A stretch of 64,000 bases of DNA from Planctomycetota bacterium (GTDB lineage: Bacteria > Planctomycetota > PUPC01 > DSUN01): positions 24,579 through 88,578 of the forward strand of contig DAOOIT010000017.1 of NCBI GenBank assembly GCA_035384565.1. Reading direction: 5' to 3'. A model generated the notes under the pieces. The model had not been told where the DNA came from. It ran no database searches and saw nothing but the letters and a program-made list of their open reading frames with translations. The translations under genes and the position numbers were made by a program. Shown here in pieces: positions 768-34,307 of the stretch; the stretch's first letter is position 1, and each line of letters opens with the position of its first letter.

Positions 768-1850
768 ATGACGGGTCAACAGCGCTTCCTCAAAGCCCTC
801 CGCCGCCAGCAGCCCGACCGCGTGCCGGTGTGGGAACTCATCGTCAACGAGCCGATCATCCGCGCCCTCCACGGGCCGGGCGTCTCGTACCACGACTTCT
901 GCGACCGCGAGGACCTCGACGGCGTCACCACCTTCGAGAACCAGCGCGTCACCCGCCTCGACCCGCACACCGTGCGCGACGAGTGGGGCATCCTCTGGCG
1001 CACCGACGAGGCCACCGGCATCCCCTACCGGGTGGACGGCCCGATCAAGTCGCCCGCCGACCTCGACGCCTATCGCGCGCCCGACCCCGACGCCGACCAC
1101 CGCCTGCTCACCCTGGCCGAGGCCGTGCGCCGCTTCCAGGGCCGCCGCGCCATCGTCTTCCTCAGCCACGACGCCTTCGAGTTCTCCTGCTACCTCTACG
1201 GCATGGACCGCCTGCTCATGGCCTACGTGGCCGAGCCCCAGGTGGCCCACCGCCTCGCCCGCATCGTCACCGACTACAAGAAGCGCGTGTGCGAACGCGC
1301 CGCCGCGCTCGGCGCCGACGTGCTGCTCACGGGCGACGACTACGCCAACCGCAAGGCCCCCCTCATGTCGCCCGCCCACTTCCGCGAGTTCTGCCTGCCC
1401 TATCTCCAGGAGATGGTGGACACCGCGCACCGCCTGCGCAAGCCCTTCATCAAGCACACCGACGGCAACCTGTGGCCGATCCTCGACGACCTGGTGGGCG
1501 CGGGCATTGACGCGCTCGACCCCATCGAGCCGATCGCGGGGATGGACATCGGCGAGGTGAAGGCCCGGTACGGCCGCCGCATCGCCCTGTGCGGCAACGT
1601 AGACTGCGGCGAGCTGCTCTCGCGCGGCACGCCCGACGACGTGGTCGAGGCCGTCAAAGAGACCATCGCCAAGGCCAGCCCGGGCGGCGGCCACATCCTC
1701 GCCTCGTCCAACAGCATCCACCCCGCCGTCCGCCCCGCCAACTACCGGGCCATGCTCGCCGCCGCGCGCCGCTTCGGCCAATACCCGCTCGACCGACGCC
1801 TCGTCGCCGAGTACCGCGGCCGCCGCTACATCGAACGCTTCTTGGGCTGA
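768..1850 (+). CDS. Uroporphyrinogen decarboxylase (URO-D/MtaA-like) family protein
   Basis: N-terminal RFLKAL...QPDRVPVW and GDD...HTDGN...DPIEP pattern of the URO-D family. No tetrapyrrole gene context. Confidence 0.6.
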   Translation: MTGQQRFLKALRRQQPDRVPVWELIVNEPIIRALHGPGVSYHDFCDREDLDGVTTFENQRVTRLDPHTVRDEWGILWRTDEATGIPYRVDGPIKSPADLDAYRAPDPDADHRLLTLAEAVRRFQGRRAIVFLSHDAFEFSCYLYGMDRLLMAYVAEPQVAHRLARIVTDYKKRVCERAAALGADVLLTGDDYANRKAPLMSPAHFREFCLPYLQEMVDTAHRLRKPFIKHTDGNLWPILDDLVGAGIDALDPIEPIAGMDIGEVKARYGRRIALCGNVDCGELLSRGTPDDVVEAVKETIAKASPGGGHILASSNSIHPAVRPANYRAMLAAARRFGQYPLDRRLVAEYRGRRYIERFLG

Positions 1851-17200: not shown

Positions 17201-17931
17201 GGGCGGCCCTCCGGGGTGGCGGAACCGGGCGGGGCGAGCGGCAGGCGGACGGTGAAGTGGGTGCCCTTGCCCACGTCGCTCTCGACGGCGATGGAGCCGC
17301 CGTGGAGTTCGAGGATGCGCCGCGCGGTGCAGAGGCCCAGGCCGCTGCCGCCCTCTTTGGTGGAGAAGTAGAGGTCGAAGATCCGCCCGAGCTGGTGGTC
17401 GGGGATGCCGATGCCCGTGTCGGTGACGTCAATCTGCACGCCGGGCGGGCTGGCCGAGGTGGCGACGATGAGTTCGCCGCCCTTGGGCATGGCCTCTTCG
17501 GCGTTGATGAGCAGGTTGAGCAGGGCCTGCTTGAGCAGCTTGGGGTCGGCCTGGATCACGGGCAGGTCGGCGGCGAGCTGGCTGCGCACCCGGATGCCGA
17601 GCTGCGCGGCCTTGGGCGCGATGAAGTCGAGCAGCTCCTGGACCAGGAGATTCACTTCGCACGGCTGCGGGCTGGCGTGCGGGGTGCGGGCGTAGCGCAG
17701 GAAGTCCTCGAGGAGGCCGACGAGGCGGGTGGTCTCGCGCTCGAGGGTCTGAAGGCGCTTCAGGGTGCGGCGCTCGCGCGGGGTGGTGGCGTCGCGCTGC
17801 CAGTCCTCGAGCATGAGTTGCAGGTTGAGGCTGATGGTGCTCAGCGGGTTCTTGATCTCGTGGGCCAGGCCGGCGGCCAGGGTGACCACGTGGGACCAGG
17901 CGTTGTCGTGCGGAGCGGGGTGCGTGCTCAT
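17197..17931 (-). CDS. Sensor histidine kinase (cytoplasmic HisKA+HATPase)
   Basis: HEIKNPL H-box. 4-nt overlap with the regulator gene. Start at ATG 17931. Confidence 0.7.
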
Positions 17932-24301: not shown

Positions 24302-24688
24302 ATGCCTGAGCGAGGGAGCGCGGCGGGCTTCAGGGGTCTCAAGGTCTATCAGCGGGCATACCAACTGGCCATGGAGATCTTCCGAATCACCAAGAGGTTC
24401 CCGCCTGCGGAACGGTACTCGCTCACGGACCAGATTCGCCGAACGTCGCGAAGCGTGGCGGCCAACATCGCGGAAGGCTATCGCAAGCGCAGGTACGTGA
24501 ACGTCTTCGTGCTCAAGCTGACCGACTCGGATGGCGAGGCTGCCGAGACGCAAGTGTGGCTGGACTTCTTGCGCGATTGTGGCTACATCAGCGCGGAGCA
24601 GCGCAATGAACTGGTGACCGGCTACGAAGAGGTGGGCCGAATGCTGGGCGGCATGATCGAACGCCCGGAGCGCTTCTGCCCCCCGTAA
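24302..24688 (+). CDS. Four-helix-bundle protein (TIGR02436-like; 23S rRNA IVS protein family)
   Basis: 128-aa tail of a long GC-frame ORF. AGGAG RBS. LKVYQRAYQLAMEIF...SVAANIAEGY motifs. Confidence 0.7.
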   Translation: MPERGSAAGFRGLKVYQRAYQLAMEIFRITKRFPPAERYSLTDQIRRTSRSVAANIAEGYRKRRYVNVFVLKLTDSDGEAAETQVWLDFLRDCGYISAEQRNELVTGYEEVGRMLGGMIERPERFCPP

Positions 24689-24702: not shown

Positions 24703-25515
24703 TTACTGCCGACTGCCGGTCGCCTTCGCGAGTCGCTGCCAGGAGAACATCTGCGCCGCCCACTTGCGGAACCGGCCCCAGGCGGTCATTTCGTCGAGCG
24801 CCTCGAGTGCCGGCGCATAGCCCGGGCGGCGGGCCAGGGCCTGGCGGTAGGCGTCGCGCGCGGCGGCAAGGTGGCCCAGGGCGCGATGGCAGTCGCCCGT
24901 GAGCTTCCACACGAAGGGGTTGGCCGGCACGGCCTGGGCGGCGAGCGCGAGCCGCTCGAGCGCGCGCCCGTGGCGGCCCCATCGCATGAGGCAAAGGGCC
25001 GCGCGAAAGTCGGCCCGCCAGTGGCTCGGGTCGGCCTGGCGAGCCTTCTCGAAGCACGCCTCGGCGCTCTCGATCGTGCCCCAGACGCTGGTGGCCAGCA
25101 CCACCTCGGCGCGCGCGAGCCAGGTGAACAGGCCGGCGCCCTGGTGCTTCACGGCGATGTCGGAGTGGTGGTAGGCCGCCTCGAAGTGGCCCTGATGTGC
25201 CAGCACGAGGGCCTTGGCGGCGTAGAAGAGCGGCACCTTGCCGTACGAGGCCAGGGCCTCGGTCGCCACGGCGTCGGCGCGGGGCAGGTCGCCGGCGCGC
25301 AGGCAGGCGTCCGCCTCGGCCGCCCAGGCCTCGAAGAGCGAGGGGTCGTGGCGCCGCGCCGCGCGGAAGTCGCGGGCCGCCGCCTCGAACTCGCCCTCGT
25401 AGAACCGCCGCTCGCCCGAGCGCATCAGCCCGTCGGCAGGATGCGGGCTCGGGATCTCCTCGGTTGCCGTATCCTCTCTCGCGGGATCGGGTGGGAACTC
25501 AAGCCACGATGACAT
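24703..25515 (-). CDS. TPR repeat protein
   Basis: Repeated A/Y/L patterns typical of TPR repeats. Start at ATG 25515 (MSSWLEF). Confidence 0.6.
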   Translation of the reverse strand: MSSWLEFPPDPAREDTATEEIPSPHPADGLMRSGERRFYEGEFEAAARDFRAARRHDPSLFEAWAAEADACLRAGDLPRADAVATEALASYGKVPLFYAAKALVLAHQGHFEAAYHHSDIAVKHQGAGLFTWLARAEVVLATSVWGTIESAEACFEKARQADPSHWRADFRAALCLMRWGRHGRALERLALAAQAVPANPFVWKLTGDCHRALGHLAAARDAYRQALARRPGYAPALEALDEMTAWGRFRKWAAQMFSWQRLAKATGSRQ

Positions 25516-25592
25516 GATCTGGTCGCGCCTGCCTACAGCCGATGGGTCTCCAGCTCCCTGCCCTCCGCGCTGCCGACTGGTAGCTGCCGACT

Positions 25593-26843
25593 TCAGCCTT
25601 TCTCCGTCTTCCCCGCCACGCCCGCCCACACGCCCGCGATCGGGGTGCCGCAGCCCGGGCACTTGCCGTCCTTGAGCTCTACCGCGCCGATGCTGTAGCG
25701 CACGCGGCGGATGAGATAGCGGTCGCACTTGGGGCAGCGGGTGCTCTCGCCAGGATGGCCGCCGGGACGCGAGACGTTGCCGACGTAGACGTAGCGCAGG
25801 CCCTCCTTGCGGCTGACCTCCCAGAGGCGCTCAACGGTCTCGGGCGGGGTGCGCTCGAGGTCGCGCAGCTTGTAGGTGGGGAAGAAGGCGCTGTAGTGCA
25901 GCGGCACGTCGGGGCCCAGCTCGCCGCAGATCCATTTCGCCATCTCGCGCACTTCCTTCGGGTCATCGTTGTGCGTGGGGATGACGAGGTAGACGATCTC
26001 GAACCACATCTTCTTCTTCGCCAGGAGCTTGAGCGTGTCGAGCACGGGCTGGAGCTTGCCGTGGACGAGCTTCTTGTAGAACCTTTCGGTGTAGGCCTTG
26101 AGGTCAATCTTCACGGCGCTCAGCACGTCGCAGAGCTTCTCCATCGGCTCGGGCGTGATGTAGCCGTTGGAGATCATCACGCTCTCGATGCCCTTGGCGC
26201 GGGCCGCCTTGGCCGTATCGAACATGTACTCGTAGTAGACGACCGGCTCGGTGTAGGTGAAGGCGATGGTGCGGGCGCGCAGCGGGCCGTCGGTGAAGTA
26301 GCTGCGGCGCGGCAGCGCGGCGTCGGCCACGAGCGCGTCGGGCGGGAGGTTGAGGTTGCGCGTCTGCTCGGGCCGCACCTGCGAGATCTCCCAGTTCTGG
26401 CAGAACAGACACTCGACGTTGCAGCCGGCCGTGGCGATCGAGTAGGCCCAGGTGCCGGGCAGGAAGTGAAAGAGCGGCTTCTTCTCGATGGGGTCCACGT
26501 TGCGGGCGCAGGGGTTGCCGTAGACGAGCGTGTGGTAGACGCCGCCGCGGTTCTCGCGGACGCCGCAGTAGCCGCGCTCCTGGTCGCCCACTTCGCAGAG
26601 GTTGGGGCACAGGGTGCAGCGGACGCGCCCCTCGGGCAGCTTCTCGTAGAAGCGGGCCTCGGGCGCCTGCCAGATGCCGCCGAGCGTGGCGAGCCCAGGC
26701 TCGTCTTGGCCCGAGGCCGGGCGCAGCAGCGCAGTGGCGCCGGCCCCAGCGGCCAGCGCGCAGCCGCCCAGGGCGCAGTGCCGCACGAACTCGCGGCGGG
26801 ACAGATTGCGGACCGGTGATTGCGGGTTGCGGATTGCGGGCAT
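25593..26843 (-). CDS. Radical SAM enzyme (PflA-like, AmmeMemoRadiSam-type) with N-terminal Tat signal
   Basis: CNVECLFCQNWEIS rSAM cluster and upstream CTLCPNLC...YCGV Cys pairs. About 60-aa N-terminal extension with SRREFVRH plus a hydrophobic core. Confidence 0.7.
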   Translation of the reverse strand: MPAIRNPQSPVRNLSRREFVRHCALGGCALAAGAGATALLRPASGQDEPGLATLGGIWQAPEARFYEKLPEGRVRCTLCPNLCEVGDQERGYCGVRENRGGVYHTLVYGNPCARNVDPIEKKPLFHFLPGTWAYSIATAGCNVECLFCQNWEISQVRPEQTRNLNLPPDALVADAALPRRSYFTDGPLRARTIAFTYTEPVVYYEYMFDTAKAARAKGIESVMISNGYITPEPMEKLCDVLSAVKIDLKAYTERFYKKLVHGKLQPVLDTLKLLAKKKMWFEIVYLVIPTHNDDPKEVREMAKWICGELGPDVPLHYSAFFPTYKLRDLERTPPETVERLWEVSRKEGLRYVYVGNVSRPGGHPGESTRCPKCDRYLIRRVRYSIGAVELKDGKCPGCGTPIAGVWAGVAGKTEKG

Positions 26844-26876
26844 TTCGGTCCCTTCTCACGCGTCACACGTCACGCG

Positions 26877-27881
26877 TCAGACGGCCGCCCTCACTAGCTC
26901 GATGCGGTTCGGATCATTCGTCCCCAGCTTGGCCTCGGCGGCGAGGGCGATGTGCTTGGGCTCGCGCTTGGAGCCGAGGAGGGTTTCGAGGTTGTTGGCC
27001 TTGCGGAGTTCTTCGATCTTCTGCCAGGCCACCTGGTCGAGGGCCACGGGGTCGCGGCTGGCATAGAGGGTGCCCAGGCGCTCGATCCACTTGGGCGGCG
27101 GCGTGGGGCCGCCGTGGTAGCAGCCGAAGGTGGCGTCGCAGAGGTGCAGCACGGTCTTGCGGCGGATGTCGTCGTGGCGATTCACGTCGGCGATGGCCTG
27201 GTGGAGGTTGGCGAAGTGGTACTTGTTGGGGTTGTGGATGGCGCCGAAGAAGCTCTTGAGGCAGACGGTCACGCCGGCCAGGTCGTGGTCCTTGAGGACG
27301 GGGACGTTGATGATGACGGAGCAGGTGTCGGTGACGAGCTTGGAGAAGAACGAGCCGATCTCGCCGACCTCGATGAGGGGCGGGGCGAAGCCGAGCACGC
27401 GGTCGTCGTTGCCCACGAGGCGGAAGTCGTCGCCGCCTTCCGCGGGGTAGCCGGCGCGCGTGAGGTCGCTGAGCTTGCGGTCCCACACGAGGATGCGCTG
27501 CGGGCGCACCTCGGCGGCCTGGAGGCCGCGGGCGATGGCGCGGACGATTTCGATGCGGGTAGAGAGGCGCTCGCCGGCGAGGCAACTGGCCTTGATGCCC
27601 ACCGTGTCGTTAGGCTTCACGAAGTGCCGCCAGGCGGCCGCGGCGCTCTTCTCGCCCGTGAGCGAGCACACCGCGGCGTCCACCAGGTCCTGCGCCGCGT
27701 CCTGCTTGAGCGCATTGCCATCGCCGAATACCTTGCTGCTCGTGGCGGCGACGACGCGGCTCTTGTCATCCGCCGCGAGGCCCCAGGCGGGCAGTGCGGC
27801 GCCGACGGCGAGGCTGGTCTTGAGAAAGGCGCGGCGGCCTAGAGTGGGGAGTGGGGAGTGCGGAGTGCGGAATTCAGGCAT
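26877..27881 (-). CDS. DUF362 domain protein with Tat signal
   Basis: LGRRAFLKTSLAVGAALPAWGLAA twin-arginine signal. DUF362-like core. Confidence 0.6.
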   Translation of the reverse strand: MPEFRTPHSPLPTLGRRAFLKTSLAVGAALPAWGLAADDKSRVVAATSSKVFGDGNALKQDAAQDLVDAAVCSLTGEKSAAAAWRHFVKPNDTVGIKASCLAGERLSTRIEIVRAIARGLQAAEVRPQRILVWDRKLSDLTRAGYPAEGGDDFRLVGNDDRVLGFAPPLIEVGEIGSFFSKLVTDTCSVIINVPVLKDHDLAGVTVCLKSFFGAIHNPNKYHFANLHQAIADVNRHDDIRRKTVLHLCDATFGCYHGGPTPPPKWIERLGTLYASRDPVALDQVAWQKIEELRKANNLETLLGSKREPKHIALAAEAKLGTNDPNRIELVRAAV

Positions 27882-27914
27882 CTCTTGGGCTTCTCACGCG
27901 GGACACGGCACGCA

Positions 27915-29132
27915 TCACGTCTTGCGGATCTCCTCGTCGGTGAGGAAGCAGGCGGGGTCGTCGGCCCAGGGGTCGCCGTGGACGACTTCGGCGCGGATGC
28001 GGCAGCCGCCGCAGAGGCCGTTGTACTGGCAGCAACGGCACCGGGGACCTTTGAGGTGCTGCGTCTTGCGCCGCAGCATGGCGAGGAGTTCGTTCTTCTC
28101 GTCGGTCCAGATGGCGGAGAAGGGCCGCTCGCGGACGTTGCCGAGGGTGACGTGGCTCCAGAACTGGCAGGGGTGCACGTTGCCGCTGGCGTCCACGTTG
28201 GCCATCTTGGTGCCGGCGGAGCAGCCGCCGTGGCGGGCGAGGAGTTCGCGCACCTCGGGCAGGCGCGCGGGGGCCTCGGCGGCGAGGCGCTGCTCGATCA
28301 GGATGCCGTCGGCGTGGTTATCGGTGGTGAGCACCTCGGTTTCGATGCCGCGGCGGTGCCAGTCCTTCGTGCGGTCGAGCAGGTGCTCGATCACGCGGCG
28401 GGTCTGGGCGGGGTCGAGGTCGTCGGCGACCATTTCGCGGCCGCGGCCGGCGTAAACCAGGTGGTAGAGGCAGAAGCGCGGCACGCCGCGCTGTTCGACG
28501 AGGTCGAGCACGGCGTCGAGGTCGGCCACGTTGCGGCGGTTGAGGGTGAAGCGGATGCCGGCTTTCACGCCCGCGGCGAGGCAGTTCTGGATGCCGGTCA
28601 GCGCGGCCTCGAGCGCGCCCTTCTTGCGCCGCAGCTCGTCGTGGGTAGCCGCCGTGCCATCAATGGATACGCCGACGTAGGAGAAGCCGACGTCGGCGAT
28701 CTGGCGCGCCACTTCGGGCGTCACGAGGGTGCCGTTGGACGAGAGCACGGCTCGCAGGCCCTGCGCGATGGCGAAGCGGCCGAGTTCGAACACGTCGGGC
28801 CGCTGGAGCGGCTCGCCGCCGGAGAACAGCAGCACCGGGCAGCGCATCGCCGCGATGTCGGTGATGAAGGCCCGGGCCTCCTCGGTCGTCAGCTCGTCGC
28901 GGGCCGCGCGGTCGCTGGCATCAAGGTAGCAGTGGGCGCAGGCCAGGTTGCAGCGCCGCGTGGTGTTCCAGACGACGAGCGGGCGGTTCTCGGTGGTGAA
29001 CTGGAGCAGGTGCGCCTTCTGCCCGGCGTCGTGGCGCATCAGGTCGGCGATGGTGGCGGTGCCGCACAACAGCTTGGTACAACCGATCACGTGGTTCTCC
29101 GGCGTGGTAACCCGTCGGCCCTCATCATGCAT
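27915..29132 (-). CDS. Radical SAM/SPASM-domain protein (anSME-like maturase family)
   Basis: CNLACAHCY rSAM motif and C-terminal CQF...CRCCQYNGLCGGCR SPASM cysteines. Start at ATG 29132 or TTG 29159. Confidence 0.8.
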   Translation of the reverse strand: MHDEGRRVTTPENHVIGCTKLLCGTATIADLMRHDAGQKAHLLQFTTENRPLVVWNTTRRCNLACAHCYLDASDRAARDELTTEEARAFITDIAAMRCPVLLFSGGEPLQRPDVFELGRFAIAQGLRAVLSSNGTLVTPEVARQIADVGFSYVGVSIDGTAATHDELRRKKGALEAALTGIQNCLAAGVKAGIRFTLNRRNVADLDAVLDLVEQRGVPRFCLYHLVYAGRGREMVADDLDPAQTRRVIEHLLDRTKDWHRRGIETEVLTTDNHADGILIEQRLAAEAPARLPEVRELLARHGGCSAGTKMANVDASGNVHPCQFWSHVTLGNVRERPFSAIWTDEKNELLAMLRRKTQHLKGPRCRCCQYNGLCGGCRIRAEVVHGDPWADDPACFLTDEEIRKT

Positions 29133-29210
29133 TATAGCCGTGGGCGCGCGGGGGATCAAGGCGCAAGCCCGCCTGAAACGGGCAGTTAGGGCGAATCGGG
29201 CCGCGGCCGG

Positions 29211-29238
29211 TTGACAATCAGCCCGCGTGTGGTATGAT
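29211..29238 (+). promoter_or_regulatory. Sigma70-like promoter upstream of pspA
   Basis: -35 TTGACA (29211-16), 16-bp spacer, -10 TATGAT (29233-38). Read directly from the sequence. Confidence 0.4.
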
Positions 29239-29419
29239 TCTGATGGACGGCCGAGCCAAGCACTCCGTGCCCGGCCGCGGACACCACGCTTCGAGTGGGA
29301 GCGCAGCCACCGAGTGGTGCTCCAGGCGAGGGAGTGCGTAGCCGCGGCTAACCCCGCGGCGTGCAGGGGTGATCCCGGGATTAGCCTCCCAGGGAGCCCG
29401 GAAGAAAGGAGGAGCCGCC

Positions 29420-30148
29420 ATGGCTGCCGGATTTCTGAAGCGTGTGCGCCGCATTACCATGGGCAAGATCCATGCCTTCCTGGATGCGGTGGAGAACCCC
29501 GAAGAGATCTTCCCGCAGCTCGTGCAGGAGTTGCGCAACGAGTGCCGGAAGGCCGTGGACGCCGAGGCCATCGCGGTCGCGGCGCTCAAGCGGCGACAGC
29601 AGGAGTATGACGACCTCCAGGCCGAGATAGCCAAGTGGGAGCAGCGCGCCGAGCTGGCCGTGCGCGACGGCGACGACGCGCTGGCCCGCACGGCCATCGA
29701 GGGCCAGATGGCGGGCGAGAAGCGCGTGCCCGACCTCCAGCGGGCGCTCGAGCAGGCCCGCGTGGCCGCCAGCCGCGCGCGCGAGGCGCGACAGGACCTC
29801 CACGACAAGCTGCACACCCTCGAGCGCCGGCGCGACGAGATCCTCGCCCGCGCCCGCGCCGCCAAGAGCCAGGCCGAGGTCCAGAAGGTCCTCGCCGGCA
29901 TCGAGGCGGGCTCGGGGGCCAGCATCCTGGATGCCGTGGCTCGCATGGAGGACAAGGTCATCGAGGCCGAGGCCCGCGCCGGCGCCTACGCGGAGGTCGC
30001 CCTCGACCTCAGCGGCGGCGACGCCGAGGCCCGCTTCCGCGAGCTCGAACGCCGGCGGGCCGTCGAGAACCGCCTGCTCGAGCTCAAGCAACGCATCGCC
30101 GGCCGGCTGCCGGCGGGCGAGCCCGACGCGGAGACCCGCGAGTCCTGA
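29420..30148 (+). CDS. pspA: PspA/IM30 family protein
   Basis: Coiled-coil PspA/Vipp1 architecture. AGGAGG RBS. Confidence 0.85.
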   Translation: MAAGFLKRVRRITMGKIHAFLDAVENPEEIFPQLVQELRNECRKAVDAEAIAVAALKRRQQEYDDLQAEIAKWEQRAELAVRDGDDALARTAIEGQMAGEKRVPDLQRALEQARVAASRAREARQDLHDKLHTLERRRDEILARARAAKSQAEVQKVLAGIEAGSGASILDAVARMEDKVIEAEARAGAYAEVALDLSGGDAEARFRELERRRAVENRLLELKQRIAGRLPAGEPDAETRES

Positions 30149-30214
30149 AGTCCCATCGGCGGAAGACGCCGGCTGCGCTCCCACGCCTTCTGTCTCGGGG
30201 GACTCAGGACGGAG

Positions 30215-30958
30215 GTGCCCGGTATGCCCGAGATACTCCACTGGTGGAACCTGGTCTTCGTTCTGGCCGTGTTCTTCGCCTTCGTGTACGCGGCGCTCAA
30301 CGCCTTCGGCCTCGGCGGCCACGGCGGCATCCTGTCGGGCGCCGACCTGGAGGCGGACCACGACGTGGACCTCGGCGCCGCGGCCGGAGGGGCGAGCCTC
30401 GACGCCGAGCACCTGCCCGATCTGCACGTGGACCACGGCGTCCACGTGGAGAGCGCCCCGAGCCTGTTCGAGCAGGCATTGTCGTTCTTCGGCATCGGCA
30501 AGGTGCCGCTTTCGGTGATCCTGATGACGTTCCTGATCACCTTCGGCGTGGTGGGCTGGGCGGCCAACCAGCTCCTCGAGCCGGCGCTCGCCGCGCCGAT
30601 CGCGTTCTTCCCCATCTCGCTGGCGGCGGCCATCGCCTGCGGCCTGGGCAGCACGAAGGCCCTCGCCGCCACCGTGGGCCGCTACCTGCGGCCCATCGAG
30701 TCGGCGGCGCTCTGGCGCGGCGAGCTCGCGGGCCGCATCGCCACGGCCAGCCTCACGATCACGGCCCAGTTCGGCACGGCGCTGGTCCGCGACGAGTACG
30801 GCACCCTGCACAAGGTGCTCTGCCGCGCGCGCGAGGATGCCCCGCCCATCGCGAAGGGCAGCACCGTGCTCCTCGTGCGCTACGTGCCCGTGAAGGAGCC
30901 CGGCCGCCGGCCCGGCGGCTACTACGTCGTGGAGCCCTACCATGTCCCGGCCCCCTAG
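30215..30958 (+). CDS. NfeD/YqiJ-like membrane protein
   Basis: N-terminal TM helices and a C-terminal OB-like beta domain. Lies between pspA and the flotillin gene. Confidence 0.5.
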   Translation: MPGMPEILHWWNLVFVLAVFFAFVYAALNAFGLGGHGGILSGADLEADHDVDLGAAAGGASLDAEHLPDLHVDHGVHVESAPSLFEQALSFFGIGKVPLSVILMTFLITFGVVGWAANQLLEPALAAPIAFFPISLAAAIACGLGSTKALAATVGRYLRPIESAALWRGELAGRIATASLTITAQFGTALVRDEYGTLHKVLCRAREDAPPIAKGSTVLLVRYVPVKEPGRRPGGYYVVEPYHVPAP

Positions 30959-31133
30959 CTCCGCCCCCGGGCCGCCGGGCGGCCTGTCGCGTCGGCCGGC
31001 CCAGCGCCCGCCGCTGCCCGCCGCGGGCCAGGTCCAGAGGCCGGTGCCGGCGCAGCAGGTGTTTGTCCAGGACCGGCCCGACTCCCAGGCCCCCATCCCG
31101 TCCGGCCCCCACCGTCGCAAGGAAGGAGGAAGC

Positions 31134-33059
31134 ATGGCCGCCTTCATCGGCATCCTGATCGGCGCGGGCCTCGTCGCCGCCGGCTTCGCCGTCGAGAGGC
31201 TCGAGATCATGACCCGCATCATCCTGGTGAGCGCCGGCGCCGTCGTCGTCCTGCTCACCGGCATCCTCGTCGCCATCACCAAGCTCTACCGCAAGACGAC
31301 GGCCAACGAGGCCTTCGTCCGCACCGGCATGGGCAAGGCCAAGGTCGTGCTCGACGGCGGCGCGCTCGTCATCCCCATCGTCCATCGCGTCGTGCCCGTG
31401 TCGCTCGAGACCATGCGGCTCGACGTCTCGCGCCGCGGCGAGGACGCCCTGATCACCGGCGACAACCTGCGCGTGGACATCGCGGCCGAGTTCTACATCA
31501 AGGTGCAACCCGAGGCCGACGACATCCTCAACGCCGCCCGCTCGCTCGGCGAGAAGTCCGTCTCCGAGGAGGGCATCCGCGAGCTGGTGATGGAGAAGCT
31601 CATCTCGTCGCTGCGCACCGTCGCCGCCACCAAGCCCCTCATCGAACTCCACATGAAGCGCGACGAGTTCGCCTCCGCCGTCCAGAGCATCGTCACCCAG
31701 GACCTCCAGGAGAACGGCCTCACGCTGGAAACCGTGACCATCTCGAGCCTCGACCAGACGCCGCTGGACTTCCTCAAGGACGACAACGTCTTCGACGCGC
31801 AAGGCAAGCGGCGCATCACCGAGGTGACCCAGGATCAGCTCGTCAAGCGCAACGAGATCCAGCGCAACGCCGAGCGCGACATCCGCAAGAAGGACGTGGA
31901 CACGCGGAAACAGATTCTCGAGCTCGACAAGGACCGCGAGCTGGCCGAGGCCACCCAGGGCCGCGACGTGGCCAACGCCCACGCCGAGCGCCAGCGCGAG
32001 ACCCGCGAGTTCGCCATCCAGCAGGAACGCGAGGTCGAGCTGGCCCGCGTGCAGAAGGAGCTGACGGTCCAGAACGCCGAGATCGAGCGCGACCGGAACC
32101 TCTCGGTGGCGCAGGCCAAGCGCGAGGAGGCCGAGCGGCTGGCCCAGATCGAGCGCGACAAGGCCCAGCAGGAGGCCGACGTGGCGCGGGCCAAAGCCGT
32201 CGAGGTGGCCAAGCGCCTGGCCGAAGTGGCCGTGGCCGAGCAGGAGACCAAGCGCGCTCAGGCCCAGGCCCAGACCCGCGCCGCCGAGGCCAAGCGCGAG
32301 GAGGAAACCCAGCGCATCGAGACCATCAAGGTCACCACCGAGGCCGACCGGCGCGCCCAGCAGAAGATGATCACCGAGCGGCAGCAGGTGGACATCGGCC
32401 GCTACCAGGAGCAGGTGGACGCCGACGTGAAGGCCTACACGGCCGTGAAGCTGGCCGAGGGCGAGCTCACGGCAGCCGACAAGCGCAAGCAGGCCATGCT
32501 CATCCTCGCCGAGGGCGAATCCGAGGCCGCCAAGAAGATCGCCGAGGGCGAGCGCGCCAAGGAAATGGTCCCCGTCCAGGTGGACCGCGAGAAGGTCAAC
32601 GTCGAGGCCGCCCGCGTCGAAGTCCGCCGCCAGGACCTCGAGAACCAGGAGCGCTACAGCCGCGCCGCCCTCGAGTTCGAGCTCAAGAAGCAGCAGATCA
32701 TCGCCAACAAAGAAGTCCAGATCCAGATGGCCAATGCCGTGGGCACCATGCTCGCCAGCGCCAAGATGCAGCTCTTCGGCGACCCGAGCACCCTGGCCAC
32801 CATGTACGGCCAATTCCTCAAGAGCGTCGGCTGGGGCCTCACCGTCCAGGGCCTCGTCGAGTCCACCCCCGAAAACGTCCGCGAAGCCGCCATGAACCTC
32901 GTCCAGGGCACCGGCACCGCCCTCCGCGACGCCGTGGGCCGCCTCGCGGGCAAGAAGGTGGACGTAGATCCCAAGGTTCTCGAGGAGGCCCTCGTCGAGG
33001 CCCTCGCGACGGCGAAGGCCAAGACAGCCGCGCCCCCGCCGCCCGCCGAGGCGCAGTGA
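31134..33059 (+). CDS. Flotillin (SPFH/band-7, YqiK-like)
   Basis: TM, SPFH domain and a long EA-rich coiled coil. AGGAAGGAGG RBS. Confidence 0.85.
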   Translation: MAAFIGILIGAGLVAAGFAVERLEIMTRIILVSAGAVVVLLTGILVAITKLYRKTTANEAFVRTGMGKAKVVLDGGALVIPIVHRVVPVSLETMRLDVSRRGEDALITGDNLRVDIAAEFYIKVQPEADDILNAARSLGEKSVSEEGIRELVMEKLISSLRTVAATKPLIELHMKRDEFASAVQSIVTQDLQENGLTLETVTISSLDQTPLDFLKDDNVFDAQGKRRITEVTQDQLVKRNEIQRNAERDIRKKDVDTRKQILELDKDRELAEATQGRDVANAHAERQRETREFAIQQEREVELARVQKELTVQNAEIERDRNLSVAQAKREEAERLAQIERDKAQQEADVARAKAVEVAKRLAEVAVAEQETKRAQAQAQTRAAEAKREEETQRIETIKVTTEADRRAQQKMITERQQVDIGRYQEQVDADVKAYTAVKLAEGELTAADKRKQAMLILAEGESEAAKKIAEGERAKEMVPVQVDREKVNVEAARVEVRRQDLENQERYSRAALEFELKKQQIIANKEVQIQMANAVGTMLASAKMQLFGDPSTLATMYGQFLKSVGWGLTVQGLVESTPENVREAAMNLVQGTGTALRDAVGRLAGKKVDVDPKVLEEALVEALATAKAKTAAPPPPAEAQ

Positions 33060-33341: not shown

Positions 33342-34307
33342 TCAGCGGAAGTAGGCGCGGTACTTCTCCAGGGCGGCGCAGATGGCCTCGACGTTTTCGA
33401 GGGGCACGTCGGGACCGATCTCGGCGGTGATCCACAGCCCGCCCTCGGGCGTGCCCAGGCGCGAGACGCACTCGCGAATGTGCGCGTCCAGCTCCGCCGG
33501 ACCCACGAAGGGCATCATCTGCCGGTCGAGGTCGAGGTTCACGCAGATGTTCCCCTTGCAGGTGAGCACCAGGTTGTCGAGGCCGTTGGCGCGGAACTGC
33601 GGGTTGATCACGTCCACCCCGCACTCCTTGAGGTCGGGGATGATCTCCCAGCAGTGGCCGTCGGTGTGCATGTAGACCCACCAGCCGACTTCCTTGCAGC
33701 GGCGGTAGAGCTTCATGAAGCAGGGCTTGAGGTACTTGCGCCACTTGTAGGGGCCCATGGGCAGCGCGTGCTGCATCCCGAGGTCGTCGCCGAAGTAGAC
33801 GAACTTCTCGCCCGGCCCCATCTGCTCGATCTTGTATTCCAGCTCGCGCACGTTGTAGTCGAGCACGATGTCAATGAGCATTTGGAGCTCGGGCGGCTCC
33901 TCGGCGAAGTCGAGCATCAGCTCCTCGAAGCCTCGGAGGTAGAACAGGCGCATGTACATGAAGCCGTGCGGCATGCCGTCGTGGACCTCGGGGGCCTTGA
34001 GCCTGTGCACGTCGGCCCGCGTGGGCACATTGTGCACGGCGGGGTAGGCGTCCATCCCCTCGCACACGTTCTCCCACACATAGCCCCAGGGGTCCACGTG
34101 GCGGCCCTGGACGTAGAGTCCGCCCACCTTGTCGTAATCGCGCTCGCCGACCTTCACCTCGCCGAAGATGGCGGGGTGGCGGGCGAGGATGCGGTCGAGC
34201 TTCTCGCGGTGGCGCTTCCACGCCGCGGGCAGAATGCCCACGCCGACCGGGATGTACTCGGGGTGCTGGAACTTCATGGCTTTGACACGGTCGTCTTGCG
34301 CACTCAT
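33342..34307 (-). CDS. URO-D family protein (paralog of the 768-1850 gene)
   Basis: Shares the GDD...HTDGH.W.I.PDL pattern with the first URO-D-like gene. Confidence 0.5.
   Translation of the reverse strand: MSAQDDRVKAMKFQHPEYIPVGVGILPAAWKRHREKLDRILARHPAIFGEVKVGERDYDKVGGLYVQGRHVDPWGYVWENVCEGMDAYPAVHNVPTRADVHRLKAPEVHDGMPHGFMYMRLFYLRGFEELMLDFAEEPPELQMLIDIVLDYNVRELEYKIEQMGPGEKFVYFGDDLGMQHALPMGPYKWRKYLKPCFMKLYRRCKEVGWWVYMHTDGHCWEIIPDLKECGVDVINPQFRANGLDNLVLTCKGNICVNLDLDRQMMPFVGPAELDAHIRECVSRLGTPEGGLWITAEIGPDVPLENVEAICAALEKYRAYFR

What the first reader, a model, noticed from the sequence alone, without database searches (positions are those of the whole stretch)
25593..29159. Radical SAM/SPASM + DUF362 + second radical SAM cluster with Tat export signals on the DUF362 protein and one rSAM enzyme
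Four co-directional minus-strand genes run SPASM-rSAM, DUF362, rSAM, TPR protein, with 33-bp gaps between the first three. The downstream rSAM (AmmeMemoRadiSam/PflA-activase-like) carries an approximately 60-aa N-terminal extension that reads as a twin-arginine signal (SRREFVRH plus a hydrophobic stretch and an AxA-like site). The DUF362 protein also starts with a clear Tat signal (GRRAFLKTSLAVGAALPAWG). Radical SAM enzymes are normally cytoplasmic, since they need SAM and a reducing system. Tat-routed FeS radical SAM enzymes would imply a periplasmic or membrane-compartment modification system, possibly in the planctomycetal paryphoplasm. The usual AMMECR1 and Memo partners are absent. No precursor-peptide ORF is evident, so the substrate is unknown.
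Basis: partly seen in the sequence, partly recalled or inferred. Interest (0 to 1): 0.72.

Follow-up and report, generated by a model that had tools for sequence, protein, structure and literature searches.

The report
Exported radical SAM and DUF362 pair
A radical SAM enzyme, a class normally thought to work only inside the cell, and the LarA-like DUF362 protein next to it both carry conserved twin-arginine export signals. In many other phyla the enzyme's partner proteins carry export signals too, so this looks like radical SAM chemistry outside the cytoplasm that I found described nowhere.

Summary
Four co-directional minus-strand genes sit at 24703-29090, with exact 33-nt spacers between the first three.

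- **Export signals.** The AmmeMemoRadiSam-type radical SAM enzyme (rSAM, 25593-26843) and the DUF362 protein (26877-27881) both start with canonical Tat leaders. The rSAM leader is not a start-codon artefact. No start codon exists between codons 21 and 62, and 109 of its 120 best homologs keep RRxF.
- **Conserved core.** Tat-DUF362 followed by Tat-rSAM recurs across phyla. Where Memo-AMMECR1 partners lie nearby, their signal peptides track the rSAM's (18 both, 4 neither, 2 mixed).
- **Extra membrane partner.** A polytopic "fused MFS/spermidine synthase" protein accompanies 32 of 56 loci with an exported rSAM, against 2 of 27 without.
The "SPASM rSAM" is an AhbC-like heme-synthesis enzyme. Homologs about 60% identical sit inside complete ahb operons, so it is not a peptide maturase. 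Its true start is GTG 29090.

Best reading: a Tat-exported, two-protein periplasmic radical enzyme module, part of an undescribed extracytoplasmic branch of the AmmeMemoRadiSam system. Substrate and SAM supply are unknown. Interest is high.

The parts
29131..29159 (-). Sigma-70-like promoter (TTGATC, 17 nt, TATAAT) about 40 nt upstream of the operon's first start codon
   Evidence: 10 of 12 matches. Two such sites were found in the region, against 0.2 expected from shuffles. This is a consensus match only, not proof of function.
27915..29090 (-). AhbC-like radical SAM/SPASM enzyme (391 aa, no signal peptide). Probably Fe-coproporphyrin III synthase of the siroheme-dependent heme pathway. First gene of the operon.
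   Evidence: - Pfam Radical_SAM plus SPASM.
- NCBIfam AhbC 485.8 bits and NirJ1 455 bits, both below the equivalog cutoff of 650.
- Start at GTG 29090 from orthologs and PGAP HPD14982.1.
- Homologs 59-60% identical lie inside ahb/hem operons.
26877..27881 (-). DUF362 protein (334 aa) with a LarA-like fold, predicted to be Tat-exported
   Evidence: - PF04015, 77.5 bits against a cutoff of 24.
- AF2 model with pLDDT 91.7.
- Foldseek E = 5e-6.
- Pfam clan CL0471 joins DUF362 and DUF2088/LarA_N (PMC11770544).
27774..27881 (-). Tat signal peptide of DUF362 (residues 1-36; RR at 16-17; likely cleavage after G-L-A36)
   Evidence: - Sequence.
- TIGR01409 15.9 bits against 16.7.
- Pfam TAT_signal 15.1 bits.
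- 110 of 120 homologs carry the RR motif.
- The model shows a detached low-confidence helix over residues 16-28.
- The cleavage site is my reading of the sequence.
27216..27293 (-). Most conserved DUF362 segment, K197-D198-H199 ... K209 ... H216-N217-P218 ... Y221-H222. Candidate cofactor or metal site.
   Evidence: Invariant or nearly invariant columns in a 50-sequence alignment. The role is inferred from the LarA fold and was not tested.
25593..26843 (-). AmmeMemoRadiSam-type radical SAM enzyme (416 aa) with a PflA-like core, predicted to be Tat-exported
   Evidence: - TIGR04337, 366 bits against a cutoff of 220.
- AF2 model with pLDDT 84.9.
- PGAP name HPD14980.1.
26709..26843 (-). Tat signal peptide of the rSAM (residues 1-45; S-R-R-E-F-V-R at 15-21; h-region CALGGCALAAGAGATALL; likely cleavage after A-S-G45)
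   Evidence: - TIGR01409 18.6 and 23.4 bits against 16.7.
- R16, R17 and F19 are invariant.
- 109 of 120 homologs carry the motif.
- The model shows a helix over residues 16-44, and residues 39-49 have pLDDT below 50; the confidently folded core follows.
- The cleavage site is my reading of the sequence.
26400..26423 (-). CX3CX2C radical SAM cluster motif (C141, C145, C148)
   Evidence: Invariant in alignment A1. Coordinates checked.
26565..26618 (-). N-terminal invariant Cys set (C76, C79, C83, C93), a candidate auxiliary metal or FeS site
   Evidence: Invariant columns. The role is inferred.
25650..25736 (-). C-terminal invariant Cys set (C370, C373, C395, C398), zinc-ribbon-like, a candidate second auxiliary site
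   Evidence: Invariant columns. Weak zinc-ribbon Pfam matches in 3-5 of the 27 family members scanned, depending on the zinc-ribbon family.
24703..25515 (-). TPR protein (270 aa, no signal), last gene of the operon, lineage-restricted
   Evidence: TPR Pfam hits. Gene call and PGAP name HPD14979.1. Present in L001/L002 and L086/L087 but absent from L088, L089 and L091.
27842..27871 (-). Heptanucleotide tandem repeat (4.3 copies) that encodes the n-region of the DUF362 leader
   Evidence: The repeat belongs to the duplicated spacer-plus-leader module.
26820..26840 (-). Heptanucleotide tandem repeat (3 copies) that encodes the n-region of the rSAM leader
   Evidence: Within the window the motif occurs only in these two leaders, apart from one 2-mismatch match at 17675-17689.

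Best explanation
**What it is.** The finding is a four-gene operon: AhbC-like heme enzyme, DUF362, rSAM, TPR. Its conserved functional core is the DUF362-rSAM pair.

**How it most likely works.**
- Both core proteins fold and receive their cofactors in the cytoplasm. The rSAM holds a [4Fe-4S]/SAM site plus two further Cys4 sites. DUF362 holds an unknown cofactor or metal in a LarA-type pocket.
- Both are then exported by the Tat pathway, and their leaders are removed by signal peptidase I.
- Outside the cytoplasm, the PflA-like rSAM acts either as a radical-generating activase or maturase of its partner protein(s), or directly on an envelope substrate held by them.

**Wider context.** The pair belongs to a broad, previously undescribed extracytoplasmic branch of the AmmeMemoRadiSam system. 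In other phyla that branch also includes a Sec- or lipoprotein-exported Memo-AMMECR1 fusion and a polytopic membrane protein of the "fused MFS/spermidine synthase" type.

**Shown here:** family assignments, leader conservation, synteny, covariation of export signals, and folds.

**Inferred:** actual export and cleavage, periplasmic catalysis, and how SAM is obtained. SAM could be carried out bound to the enzyme for a single turnover, or supplied through the membrane spermidine-synthase-like protein that is encoded elsewhere or absent in this genome. The substrate is unknown. AhbC is probably the organism's housekeeping heme enzyme, co-transcribed in this lineage.
For: 1. **Leaders are real.**
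   - TIGR01409 is above cutoff for the rSAM.
   - RRxF is invariant in 27 diverse homologs and present in 109 of 120.
   - 110 of 120 DUF362 homologs carry it.
   - No alternative start codon exists that would remove the hydrophobic region.
   - AF2 shows a detached helix followed by a stretch of very low confidence ahead of the confident core.
   - The genome uses similar RR leaders elsewhere in the window.
2. **The pair is conserved.** It occurs in Planctomycetota, Brocadiia, KSB1, Latescibacteria, Acidobacteriota, Eisenbacteria, deltaproteobacterial and Abyssobacteria MAGs, often with gene gaps or overlaps of 0-5 nt. DUF362 is adjacent in 13 of 46 loci with a Tat-like rSAM and in 0 of 37 others (Fisher p = 0.00036).
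3. **Export signals covary between partners.** Memo-AMMECR1 has a signal peptide or lipobox in 18 of 18 loci where the rSAM has an export signal. It has none in 4 of 6 loci where the rSAM has none (p = 0.0014).
4. **Leader types differ but point the same way.** RR, KR/RK (Bacteroidota, Ignavibacteriota) and Sec- or lipoprotein-like leaders (Omnitrophota and others) all place the catalytic domain outside. They follow the rSAM phylogeny, and signal-less enzymes form their own clade.
5. **A membrane partner tracks export.** A membrane MFS/spermidine-synthase-like protein (PF01564, NF037959) occurs in 32 of 56 exported-rSAM loci against 2 of 27 others (p = 1e-5). In 19 loci it lies within 400 bp on the same strand.
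8. **The two genes share a duplicated start module.** The 33-nt spacer plus the leader start of one gene aligns ungapped with the other, so ATG 26843 is a genuine start.
Against: - There is no experimental evidence of export, cleavage or activity.
- No route is known that supplies SAM and low-potential electrons to the periplasm.
- The DUF362 leader scores just below the TIGR01409 cutoff (15.9 against 16.7). Pfam's short TAT_signal model hits only 3 of 27 rSAMs.
- Two loci (L032, L082) have a signal-bearing Memo-AMMECR1 but a signal-less rSAM. L030 and L006 also carry a signal-less AMMECR1.
- Neither the window nor its closest relatives (L001, L088, L091) contain Memo, AMMECR1 or the spermidine-synthase-like membrane gene within reach. 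The extended system may therefore not apply to this genome.
- The operon also encodes two proteins without signals (AhbC-like, TPR).
- The contingency counts come from related genomes and are not phylogenetically independent.
- The one paper likely to have discussed these contexts (Burroughs et al. 2019, J Biol Chem 294:10211) could not be read.
Confidence: 0.6

Rival explanations
1. The chemistry happens in the cytoplasm. The rSAM modifies or activates DUF362, or another client, before translocation. It is then exported only as a passenger or assembly factor, or it stays tethered by an uncleaved leader as a membrane anchor.
For: - Known rSAM maturases of exported proteins act before export. 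Examples are anSME/AtsB on sulfatases (my knowledge) and the HXS effector maturase (PMC13128918, found).
- SAM and reductant are available only in the cytoplasm.
- Tight translational coupling of DUF362 and the rSAM (gaps of 0-5 nt) suits a 1:1 complex.
- In Latescibacteria, signal-less ApbE-like and NIL-ferredoxin genes lie between the two.
Against: - A purely cytoplasmic maturase needs no leader of its own, yet leaders are conserved across whole clades and three leader types.
- Memo-AMMECR1 partners use Sec or lipoprotein signals. They cross unfolded and can only meet a folded partner outside.
- An N-in signal anchor would still place the catalytic domain outside.
Confidence: 0.2
2. The leader is a vestigial Tat-like sequence, as in NarG. 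It binds a cytoplasmic chaperone during cofactor loading and does not drive export, so the enzyme is cytoplasmic.
For: Remnant Tat leaders exist on cytoplasmic-facing redox enzymes (my knowledge). The operon encodes a signal-less TPR protein with weak similarity to chaperone-type TPR families, which could be such a chaperone.
Against: - The leader has a full n/h/c organisation with small residues at -3 and -1, and it passes TIGR01409.
- Related clades carry plain Sec or lipoprotein signals instead.
- Partner proteins carry signals.
- The TPR gene is missing from most loci.
Confidence: 0.07
3. The cluster is a peptide (RiPP) or cofactor maturation cassette. The SPASM rSAM and the second rSAM together modify an unannotated precursor peptide.
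For: SPASM enzymes often mature peptides. The SPASM protein gives weak hits to many peptide-maturase models.
Against: - Its best matches are AhbC, NirJ1 and NirJ (486, 455 and 398 bits), far above any peptide maturase.
- Homologs 59-60% identical lie inside complete heme operons.
- The spacers are 33, 33 and 77 nt, which leaves no room for a precursor ORF.
- The SPASM gene is absent from most DUF362-rSAM loci.
Confidence: 0.03
4. The N-terminal extension is an annotation artefact. The true start lies downstream, near ARFYEKL.
For: Signal-less family members begin about 12 residues before the core.
Against: - No ATG, GTG or TTG lies in frame between codons 21 and 62.
- The extension and its RR motif are conserved in 109 of 120 homologs.
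- Independent gene callers use ATG 26843.
- The spacer-plus-leader module is duplicated upstream of DUF362.
Confidence: 0.01

Closest known systems
AmmeMemoRadiSam system radical SAM enzyme (NCBIfam TIGR04337; classically a three-gene AMMECR1 + Memo + rSAM system, function unknown)
   Same: Full-length match above the family cutoff (366 against 220 bits). The CX3CX2C motif and both flanking Cys4 sets are conserved. In other phyla the exported clade still sits next to Memo-AMMECR1.
   Different: It carries a cleavable Tat leader. In the window it is paired with a Tat-DUF362 protein, with no Memo or AMMECR1 within 64 kb. The exported clades also associate with a membrane MFS/spermidine-synthase-like protein. 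The system as classically described is cytoplasmic, as it is in archaea and eukaryotes.
Pyruvate formate-lyase activating enzyme PflA and other glycyl-radical enzyme activases
   Different: - PflA model score is 65 against a cutoff of 232.
- It has extra N- and C-terminal Cys4 modules.
- No glycyl-radical enzyme gene was seen nearby (not searched systematically).
- It is exported.
LarA / DUF2088 lactate-racemase superfamily (nickel-pincer nucleotide enzymes)
   Different: - No sequence-level similarity was detected.
- DUF362 is about 130 residues shorter.
- Whether the NPN-binding residues are present is unknown.
- It is Tat-exported.
AhbC (12,18-didecarboxysiroheme deacetylase / Fe-coproporphyrin III synthase) and NirJ1
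   Same: Best family matches over the full length. Homologs 59-60% identical occupy the AhbC position in hem/ahb operons.
   Different: It falls below the equivalog cutoff (486 against 650). Here it stands apart from other heme genes, as the first gene of the DUF362-rSAM operon.
Tat-exported FeS redox enzymes (NiFe hydrogenase small subunits, formate dehydrogenase FdnG)
   Same: FeS proteins are exported folded. The leader type RRxF(L/M)KxC, with Cys at RR+7, is seen in 50 of 109 rSAM leaders. There is a weak hit to the formate-dehydrogenase TAT-target model TIGR02811. The hydrogenase and FdnG leader pattern is from my memory.
   Different: Those are electron-transfer subunits. None needs SAM.
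Cytoplasmic rSAM maturases of exported proteins (anSME/AtsB; HXS antiphage maturase, PMC13128918)
   Same: They link rSAM chemistry to a periplasmic end product.
   Different: In those systems only the substrate carries the export signal. Here the rSAM enzyme carries one itself.

Membership tests
AmmeMemoRadiSam rSAM (TIGR04337) | Family HMM score above the curated cutoff | tested here: met
   366.1 bits against a cutoff of 220, covering residues 63-412.
AmmeMemoRadiSam rSAM (TIGR04337) | Radical SAM CX3CX2C cluster motif | tested here: met
   C141, C145 and C148 are invariant. Pfam Radical_SAM 64.8 bits.
AmmeMemoRadiSam rSAM (TIGR04337) | Genomic association with AMMECR1 and Memo homologs | tested here: not met
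   No Memo or AMMECR1 ORF was found in the 64-kb window or in L001, L088 and L091 (gene tables). The rest of the genome could not be searched. The association is met in many related exported-clade loci.
Tat (twin-arginine) substrate | S/T-R-R-x-F-L-K motif followed by an uncharged h-region and a small-x-small c-region | tested here: met
   rSAM: S15-R-R-E-F-V-R, then CALGGCALAAGAGATALL, then A-S-G|Q. DUF362: G15-R-R-A-F-L-K, then TSLAVGAALPAWGLA|A. The motif is conserved in 109 of 120 and 110 of 120 homologs.
Tat (twin-arginine) substrate | TAT signal HMM (TIGR01409) above cutoff | tested here: inconclusive
   The rSAM passes (18.6 and 23.4 bits against 16.7). DUF362 is just below (15.9). Pfam TAT_signal is below its gathering score for DUF362 and absent for the rSAM.
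Tat (twin-arginine) substrate | Tat-dependent export and leader cleavage | not testable with these tools
   Needs reporter fusions, tat mutants or N-terminal proteomics.
DUF362 (PF04015) | Pfam model above the gathering score | tested here: met
   77.5 bits against 24.
LarA superfamily (NPN-dependent racemases) | LarA fold | tested here: met
LarA superfamily (NPN-dependent racemases) | NPN-binding and catalytic residues, and LarB/C/E cofactor genes | not tested
   No residue-level structural alignment was available. There is no sequence-level match to LarA. The lar genes were not searched for.
AhbC (TIGR04546) | Equivalog HMM cutoff | tested here: not met
   485.8 bits against a cutoff of 650. 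PGAP names it only "radical SAM protein".
AhbC (TIGR04546) | Position in a siroheme-dependent heme operon (with AhbA/B/D and HemA-L) | tested here: inconclusive
   Not met in the window: no other hem or ahb gene was found. Homologs 59-60% identical (P0347, P0336) sit exactly there.
Glycyl-radical enzyme activase (PflA, TIGR02493) | Family HMM cutoff | tested here: not met
   65.4 bits against 231.75. Whether a glycyl-radical enzyme partner is encoded was not tested. No large glycyl-radical-type gene appears among the window genes listed, but this was not searched for specifically.
rSAM/SPASM peptide (RiPP) maturase | Adjacent precursor peptide gene; best match to a maturase family | tested here: not met
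   Spacers of 33, 33 and 77 nt leave no room for a small ORF. The best matches are heme enzymes, by more than 300 bits.

The most novel reading that the evidence does not exclude
Radical SAM chemistry operates outside the cytoplasm in many bacterial phyla. A complete envelope-located AmmeMemoRadiSam pathway would consist of a Tat- or Sec-exported rSAM, an exported Memo-AMMECR1, a Tat-DUF362 with a LarA fold, and a polytopic spermidine-synthase-like membrane protein that binds or delivers SAM or decarboxylated SAM. This pathway would modify a cell-envelope molecule. The window encodes a reduced two-protein version of it. If so, the conserved but enigmatic Memo and AMMECR1 proteins would be tied to a tractable bacterial envelope process.
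Probability: 0.4. Interest if true: 0.9.

Novelty: new variant of a known kind. Interest (0 to 1): 0.77.

Why it matters
- **It challenges an assumption.** Radical SAM enzymes are treated as strictly cytoplasmic, because they need SAM, FeS assembly and a low-potential reductant. A large, phylogenetically coherent set of them carries Tat, KR-variant or Sec-type export signals. Their partners' signals covary, and a SAM-fold membrane protein accompanies them. This makes extracytoplasmic radical SAM chemistry a concrete, testable proposition.
- **It raises a direct question.** How do SAM and electrons reach the periplasm?
- **It gives uncharacterised families a context.** DUF362 (LarA fold), AMMECR1, Memo (both with disease-linked human homologs) and the "fused MFS/spermidine synthase" family all gain a shared, experimentally approachable setting.
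- **It matters for annotation.** The "SPASM rSAM" beside such pairs should be read as an AhbC-like heme enzyme, not as a peptide maturase.

Tried and rejected
- **Start-codon artefact.** Rejected: no downstream start codon exists and the leader is conserved.
- **RiPP cassette.** Rejected: the SPASM gene is AhbC-like and there is no room for a precursor.
- **Sequence search of PDB for DUF362.** Neither the single sequence nor the profile gave a meaningful hit. Only fold search revealed LarA.
- **Pfam TAT_signal model as a counter of Tat leaders.** Too insensitive: it hit 3 of 27 and 16 of 50 sequences that visibly carry RR motifs. I relied on motif conservation and TIGR01409 instead.
- **Search of the window and L001 for other heme genes, TatA/C, Memo, AMMECR1 and the spermidine-synthase-like membrane protein.** None found.
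- **Topology of the membrane spermidine-synthase-like protein by crude hydropathy.** Inconclusive: 5-8 helices before the soluble domain.
- **Literature.** Ten full-text searches found nothing on Tat-targeted or periplasmic radical SAM enzymes, DUF362 function, or exported Memo/AMMECR1. Burroughs et al. 2019 (J Biol Chem 294:10211), the paper most likely to have covered Memo-AMMECR1-rSAM contexts, is not held. Prior description there cannot be excluded.
- **Heptamer leader repeat as a genome-wide element.** In this window it occurs only in the two leaders, and the total match count is not above chance.

Full report
**1. What is in the sequence**

On the minus strand there are four co-directional genes:
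- a radical SAM/SPASM gene (ORF 27915-29159);
- a DUF362 gene (26877-27881);
- a second radical SAM (rSAM) gene (25593-26843);
- a TPR gene (24703-25515).

The first two spacers are exactly 33 nt and the third is 77 nt. The first ORF is over-extended. Orthologs and the PGAP protein HPD14982.1 (391 aa) begin at GTG 29090 with VIGCTKLLCG. A sigma-70-like promoter (TTGATC, 17 nt, TATAAT) lies at 29159-29131. No terminator-like site separates the genes (the one site reported lies inside the DUF362 coding sequence), so they read as one operon.

The same four genes, with identical proteins, occur on metagenomic contigs of up to 272 kb assigned to a Planctomycetota MAG.

**2. The two export signals are real**

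*The rSAM.* It matches TIGR04337, the AmmeMemoRadiSam rSAM family (366 bits, cutoff 220). Residues 14-43 match the TAT-signal model TIGR01409 at 18.6 bits, or 23.4 bits when the N-terminus is scored alone, against a cutoff of 16.7. The leader has:
- an n-region ending in S-R-R-E-F-V-R;
- an uncharged h-region (CALGGCALAAGAGATALL);
- a small-x-small site, A-S-G, before Q46.

*The start codon.* Downstream of ATG 26843 the only in-frame start codon before codon 62 is GTG at codon 20. That start would still encode the hydrophobic segment.

*Conservation.* Of the 120 best homologs, 109 carry RRxF ahead of the core. They come from Planctomycetota, Brocadiia, KSB1, Latescibacteria, Aminicenantes, Abyssobacteria, Fidelibacterota and others. 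In an alignment of 27 diverse members, R16, R17 and F19 are invariant.

*Structure.* The AF2 model has mean pLDDT 84.9. It shows the leader as a helix over residues 16-44, with pLDDT below 50 over residues 39-49, ahead of a confident core.

*DUF362.* Its leader (GRRAFLKTSLAVGAALPAWGLA|A) scores 15.9 bits, just below the cutoff. It is textbook in form, and 110 of 120 homologs share it. Two other proteins in the window carry similar RR leaders.

*A shared start module.* The 33-nt spacer plus the first 55 nt or so of the DUF362 gene aligns without gaps to the corresponding stretch of the rSAM gene. The two genes thus share a duplicated translation-start and leader module.

**3. What the proteins are**

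*The SPASM enzyme.* It is not a peptide maturase.
- Its best family matches are AhbC (486 bits), NirJ1 (455) and NirJ (398), all below the equivalog cutoffs.
- Homologs 59-60% identical from Syntrophomonadaceae and Acidobacteriota sit inside complete siroheme-dependent heme operons. The order there is SirC, HemA, HemC, CobA/HemD, this gene, HemB, a second smaller rSAM/SPASM (AhbD-like), two AhbA/B-type genes, HemL.
- I therefore read it as an AhbC-like Fe-coproporphyrin III synthase that is cytoplasmic and has no signal.
- No other heme gene lies in the window or in L001.

**4. Synteny**

The order AhbC-like, DUF362, rSAM is kept in a Brocadiia MAG (L001, which also has the TPR gene and the GH116 neighbour) and in L088 and L091. 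There the AhbC-like protein is 58-79% identical to the window's. It is not kept outside that lineage.

The DUF362-rSAM pair is much more widespread:
- KSB1 (L006);
- delta-proteobacterial MAGs (L007, L019);
- Acidobacteriota (L009, L010, L014, L022);
- Eisenbacteria (L012);
- Thermoanaerobaculales (L016);
- Latescibacteria (L003);
- L018, L089 and L090.

The two genes are usually separated by 0-5 nt or overlap. In the genome scan, DUF362 is adjacent in 13 of 46 loci with a Tat-like rSAM and in 0 of 37 others (p = 0.00036).

**5. Independent support for an extracytoplasmic location**

I classified the rSAM N-termini in 86 loci, then reclassified three by hand (L034, L035, L044). This gave roughly 49 Tat-like leaders, 10 Sec-, lipoprotein- or anchor-like hydrophobic N-termini, and 27 with none.
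- The Tat-like group includes RR leaders and a KR/RK variant typical of Bacteroidota and Ignavibacteriota.
- The hydrophobic group comes mainly from Omnitrophota and Chlamydiae-like MAGs.

A neighbour-joining tree of the cores puts almost all the signal-less enzymes in one clade. The window's enzyme falls in a clade made up entirely of Tat-like leaders (one of them the KR variant).

Where a Memo-AMMECR1 gene with an intact N-terminus lies in the locus, the counts are:

| rSAM export signal | Memo-AMMECR1 signal peptide or lipobox | Loci |
|---|---|---|
| yes | yes | 18 |
| no | no | 4 |
| no | yes | 2 (L032, L082) |
| yes | no | 0 |

Fisher's exact p = 0.0014.

Sec-exported partners cross the membrane unfolded. 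A folded-state interaction with the rSAM must therefore occur outside, which explains why the FeS enzyme needs its own Tat leader. The counts are not phylogenetically independent, but they span many phyla.

**6. An unexpected extra component**

I clustered the neighbours of the DUF362-rSAM loci. This revealed a 700-780 aa polytopic membrane protein with a central Spermine_synth domain (PF01564). It passes the NCBIfam "fused MFS/spermidine synthase" model NF037959.
- It occurs in 34 of 83 non-redundant loci: 32 of 56 with an exported rSAM against 2 of 27 without (p = 1e-5).
- The two exceptions are again L032 and L082.
- In 19 loci it lies on the same strand within 400 bp of the rSAM.
- It is not in the window, nor in L001, L003 or L006.
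- Which side of the membrane its soluble domain faces could not be resolved.

A SAM/dcSAM-fold domain embedded in a transporter-like membrane protein is the obvious candidate to connect the cytoplasmic SAM pool with an exported rSAM. That is a hypothesis, not a result.

**7. Most likely mechanism**

*Shown:* the families, folds, leaders, synteny and covariation.

*Inferred:*
- Both core proteins are loaded with cofactors in the cytoplasm, exported by Tat and cleaved.
- Outside, the PflA-like rSAM acts on, or together with, DUF362, and in other phyla with Memo-AMMECR1.
- Tight translational coupling suggests 1:1 stoichiometry. That would fit a single-turnover activase exported with SAM and reduced clusters already bound.
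- The AhbC-like gene is probably the housekeeping heme enzyme, co-transcribed in this lineage. A functional tie to a tetrapyrrole cofactor cannot be excluded.
- The TPR protein has no signal and is lineage-restricted. A chaperone role is speculation.

**8. Rivals**

- *Cytoplasmic action before export, or the rSAM as a passenger or anchor.* This is the main alternative (about 0.2). It explains the SAM problem. It does not explain why the enzyme has its own conserved leader of three interchangeable kinds, nor why partners use Sec.
- *A vestigial NarG-type leader.* Unlikely, given the complete leader, the Sec-type replacements and the partner signals.
- *A RiPP cassette, or a start-codon artefact.* Both are rejected (sections 2 and 3).

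**9. Comparison with what is known, and novelty**

The genes belong to named families: TIGR04337, PF04015, AhbC-like. PGAP already labels them. None of the names implies export.

Ten full-text searches found no description of Tat-targeted or periplasmic radical SAM enzymes, of DUF362 function, or of exported Memo/AMMECR1 systems.

The nearest published concepts are rSAM maturases that act in the cytoplasm on substrates exported later, such as the HXS system (PMC13128918). As I recall it, the Memo-AMMECR1-rSAM context analysis of Burroughs et al. 2019 tied Memo to nucleotide-base and isoprenoid modification. I could not read that paper, so it may have noted secreted versions.

I rate this a new variant of a known kind: an extracytoplasmic, DUF362-coupled branch of the AmmeMemoRadiSam system.

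**10. Verdict**

The Tat-export interpretation is well supported by comparative evidence, though unproven experimentally. The reading of the SPASM gene as a maturase is wrong. Interest is high, because it challenges the cytoplasm-only view of radical SAM enzymes and gives several uncharacterised families a testable setting.

Noticed in passing
Related loci, e.g. L051:9126-11369, L014:10727-13060, L034:3498-5795, L021:4571-6817; not in the window: A polytopic "fused MFS/spermidine synthase" membrane protein (PF01564, NF037959) accompanies 32 of 56 loci with an exported rSAM, against 2 of 27 with a signal-less rSAM. It is often directly adjacent. It may be the link to SAM or dcSAM at the membrane. 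Its topology is unresolved.
   Followed up: partly
L028, L029, L015, L033, L034, L035, L038, L049, L054, L077 (rSAM N-termini): In Omnitrophota, Chlamydiae-like and Auribacterota MAGs the same rSAM family starts with Sec-type or lipoprotein-type hydrophobic leaders with no RR motif, for example MKKSLLLLILLLSVLFPAIGADQS and MKLKFIVPILLLFSLVTC. This would be odd for an FeS enzyme.
   Followed up: partly
window 26820-26840, 26856-26883 and 27842-27871; aligned stretches 26762-26882 and 27800-27920: The n-regions of both Tat leaders are encoded by heptanucleotide tandem repeats (3 and 4.3 copies). The 33-nt spacer plus the leader start of the two genes align without gaps. Relatives differ by 7-aa (21-nt) units in this region (e.g. 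P0004 against P0005). Slippage of a 7-nt unit would shift the reading frame, so phase variation is conceivable.
   Followed up: partly
rSAM leaders of P0001-P0120 (window residues C23 and C28; window 26759-26777): Cys is frequent inside the Tat h-region: at RR+7 in 50 of 109 rSAM leaders, at RR+12 in 45 of 109, and at RR+7 in 27 of 110 DUF362 leaders. From memory, this resembles the RRxFxKxC leaders of NiFe hydrogenase small subunits and FdnG. There is a weak hit to the formate-dehydrogenase TAT-target model TIGR02811.
   Followed up: partly
L037, L051, L052, L060, L061, L065, L073, L075, L078 (Bacteroidota/Ignavibacteriota); L044 (RK): These lineages use S-K-R-E-F-(L/I)-K, or R-K, in place of the twin arginine in the rSAM leader. 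The rest of the leader is the same.
   Followed up: no
L003:8836-9986 (also L004, L005): In Latescibacteria two signal-less genes lie between Tat-DUF362 and Tat-rSAM: an ApbE-like protein (PF27030) and a NIL-domain 2x[4Fe-4S] ferredoxin. They are candidate cytoplasmic maturation or electron-donor factors.
   Followed up: no
L090:8926-9438: In an Abyssobacteria MAG a PD-(D/E)XK (PDDEXK_3) gene is inserted between DUF362 and the rSAM. The rSAM as called there lacks the Tat leader, so this may be a disrupted locus.
   Followed up: no
L032 and L082: These two loci break the covariation. The rSAM has no N-terminal extension (stop codons lie just upstream). Yet the Memo-AMMECR1 fusion has a lipoprotein signal and the spermidine-synthase-like membrane gene is present.
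   Followed up: partly
window 24302-24688 (+): A four-helix-bundle bAvd / 23S rRNA intervening-sequence family protein (128 aa) lies convergent with the TPR gene. Such proteins sometimes accompany diversity-generating retroelements.
   Followed up: no
window 29369-33059 (+): A PspA/IM30, YqiJ-like and Band-7 (flotillin-like) membrane-stress module is transcribed divergently from the operon. A near-consensus promoter (TTGACA, 16 nt, TATGAT) lies at 29211-29238.
   Followed up: no
window 768-1850 (+) and 33342-34307 (-); L003:187-1293: One URO-D (uroporphyrinogen decarboxylase family) gene (33342-34307) lies near the cluster in the window and another near it in the Latescibacteria locus. The ORF at 768-1850 looked URO-D-like only from its N-terminus and was not scanned. 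It is unclear whether these relate to the AhbC-like gene or are the sugar- or methyl-transfer type.
   Followed up: no
L006:10614-11171 and L030:575-1141: Stand-alone AMMECR1 genes with no signal peptide lie next to exported-type systems. They are either cytoplasmic paralogues or hitch-hikers.
   Followed up: no
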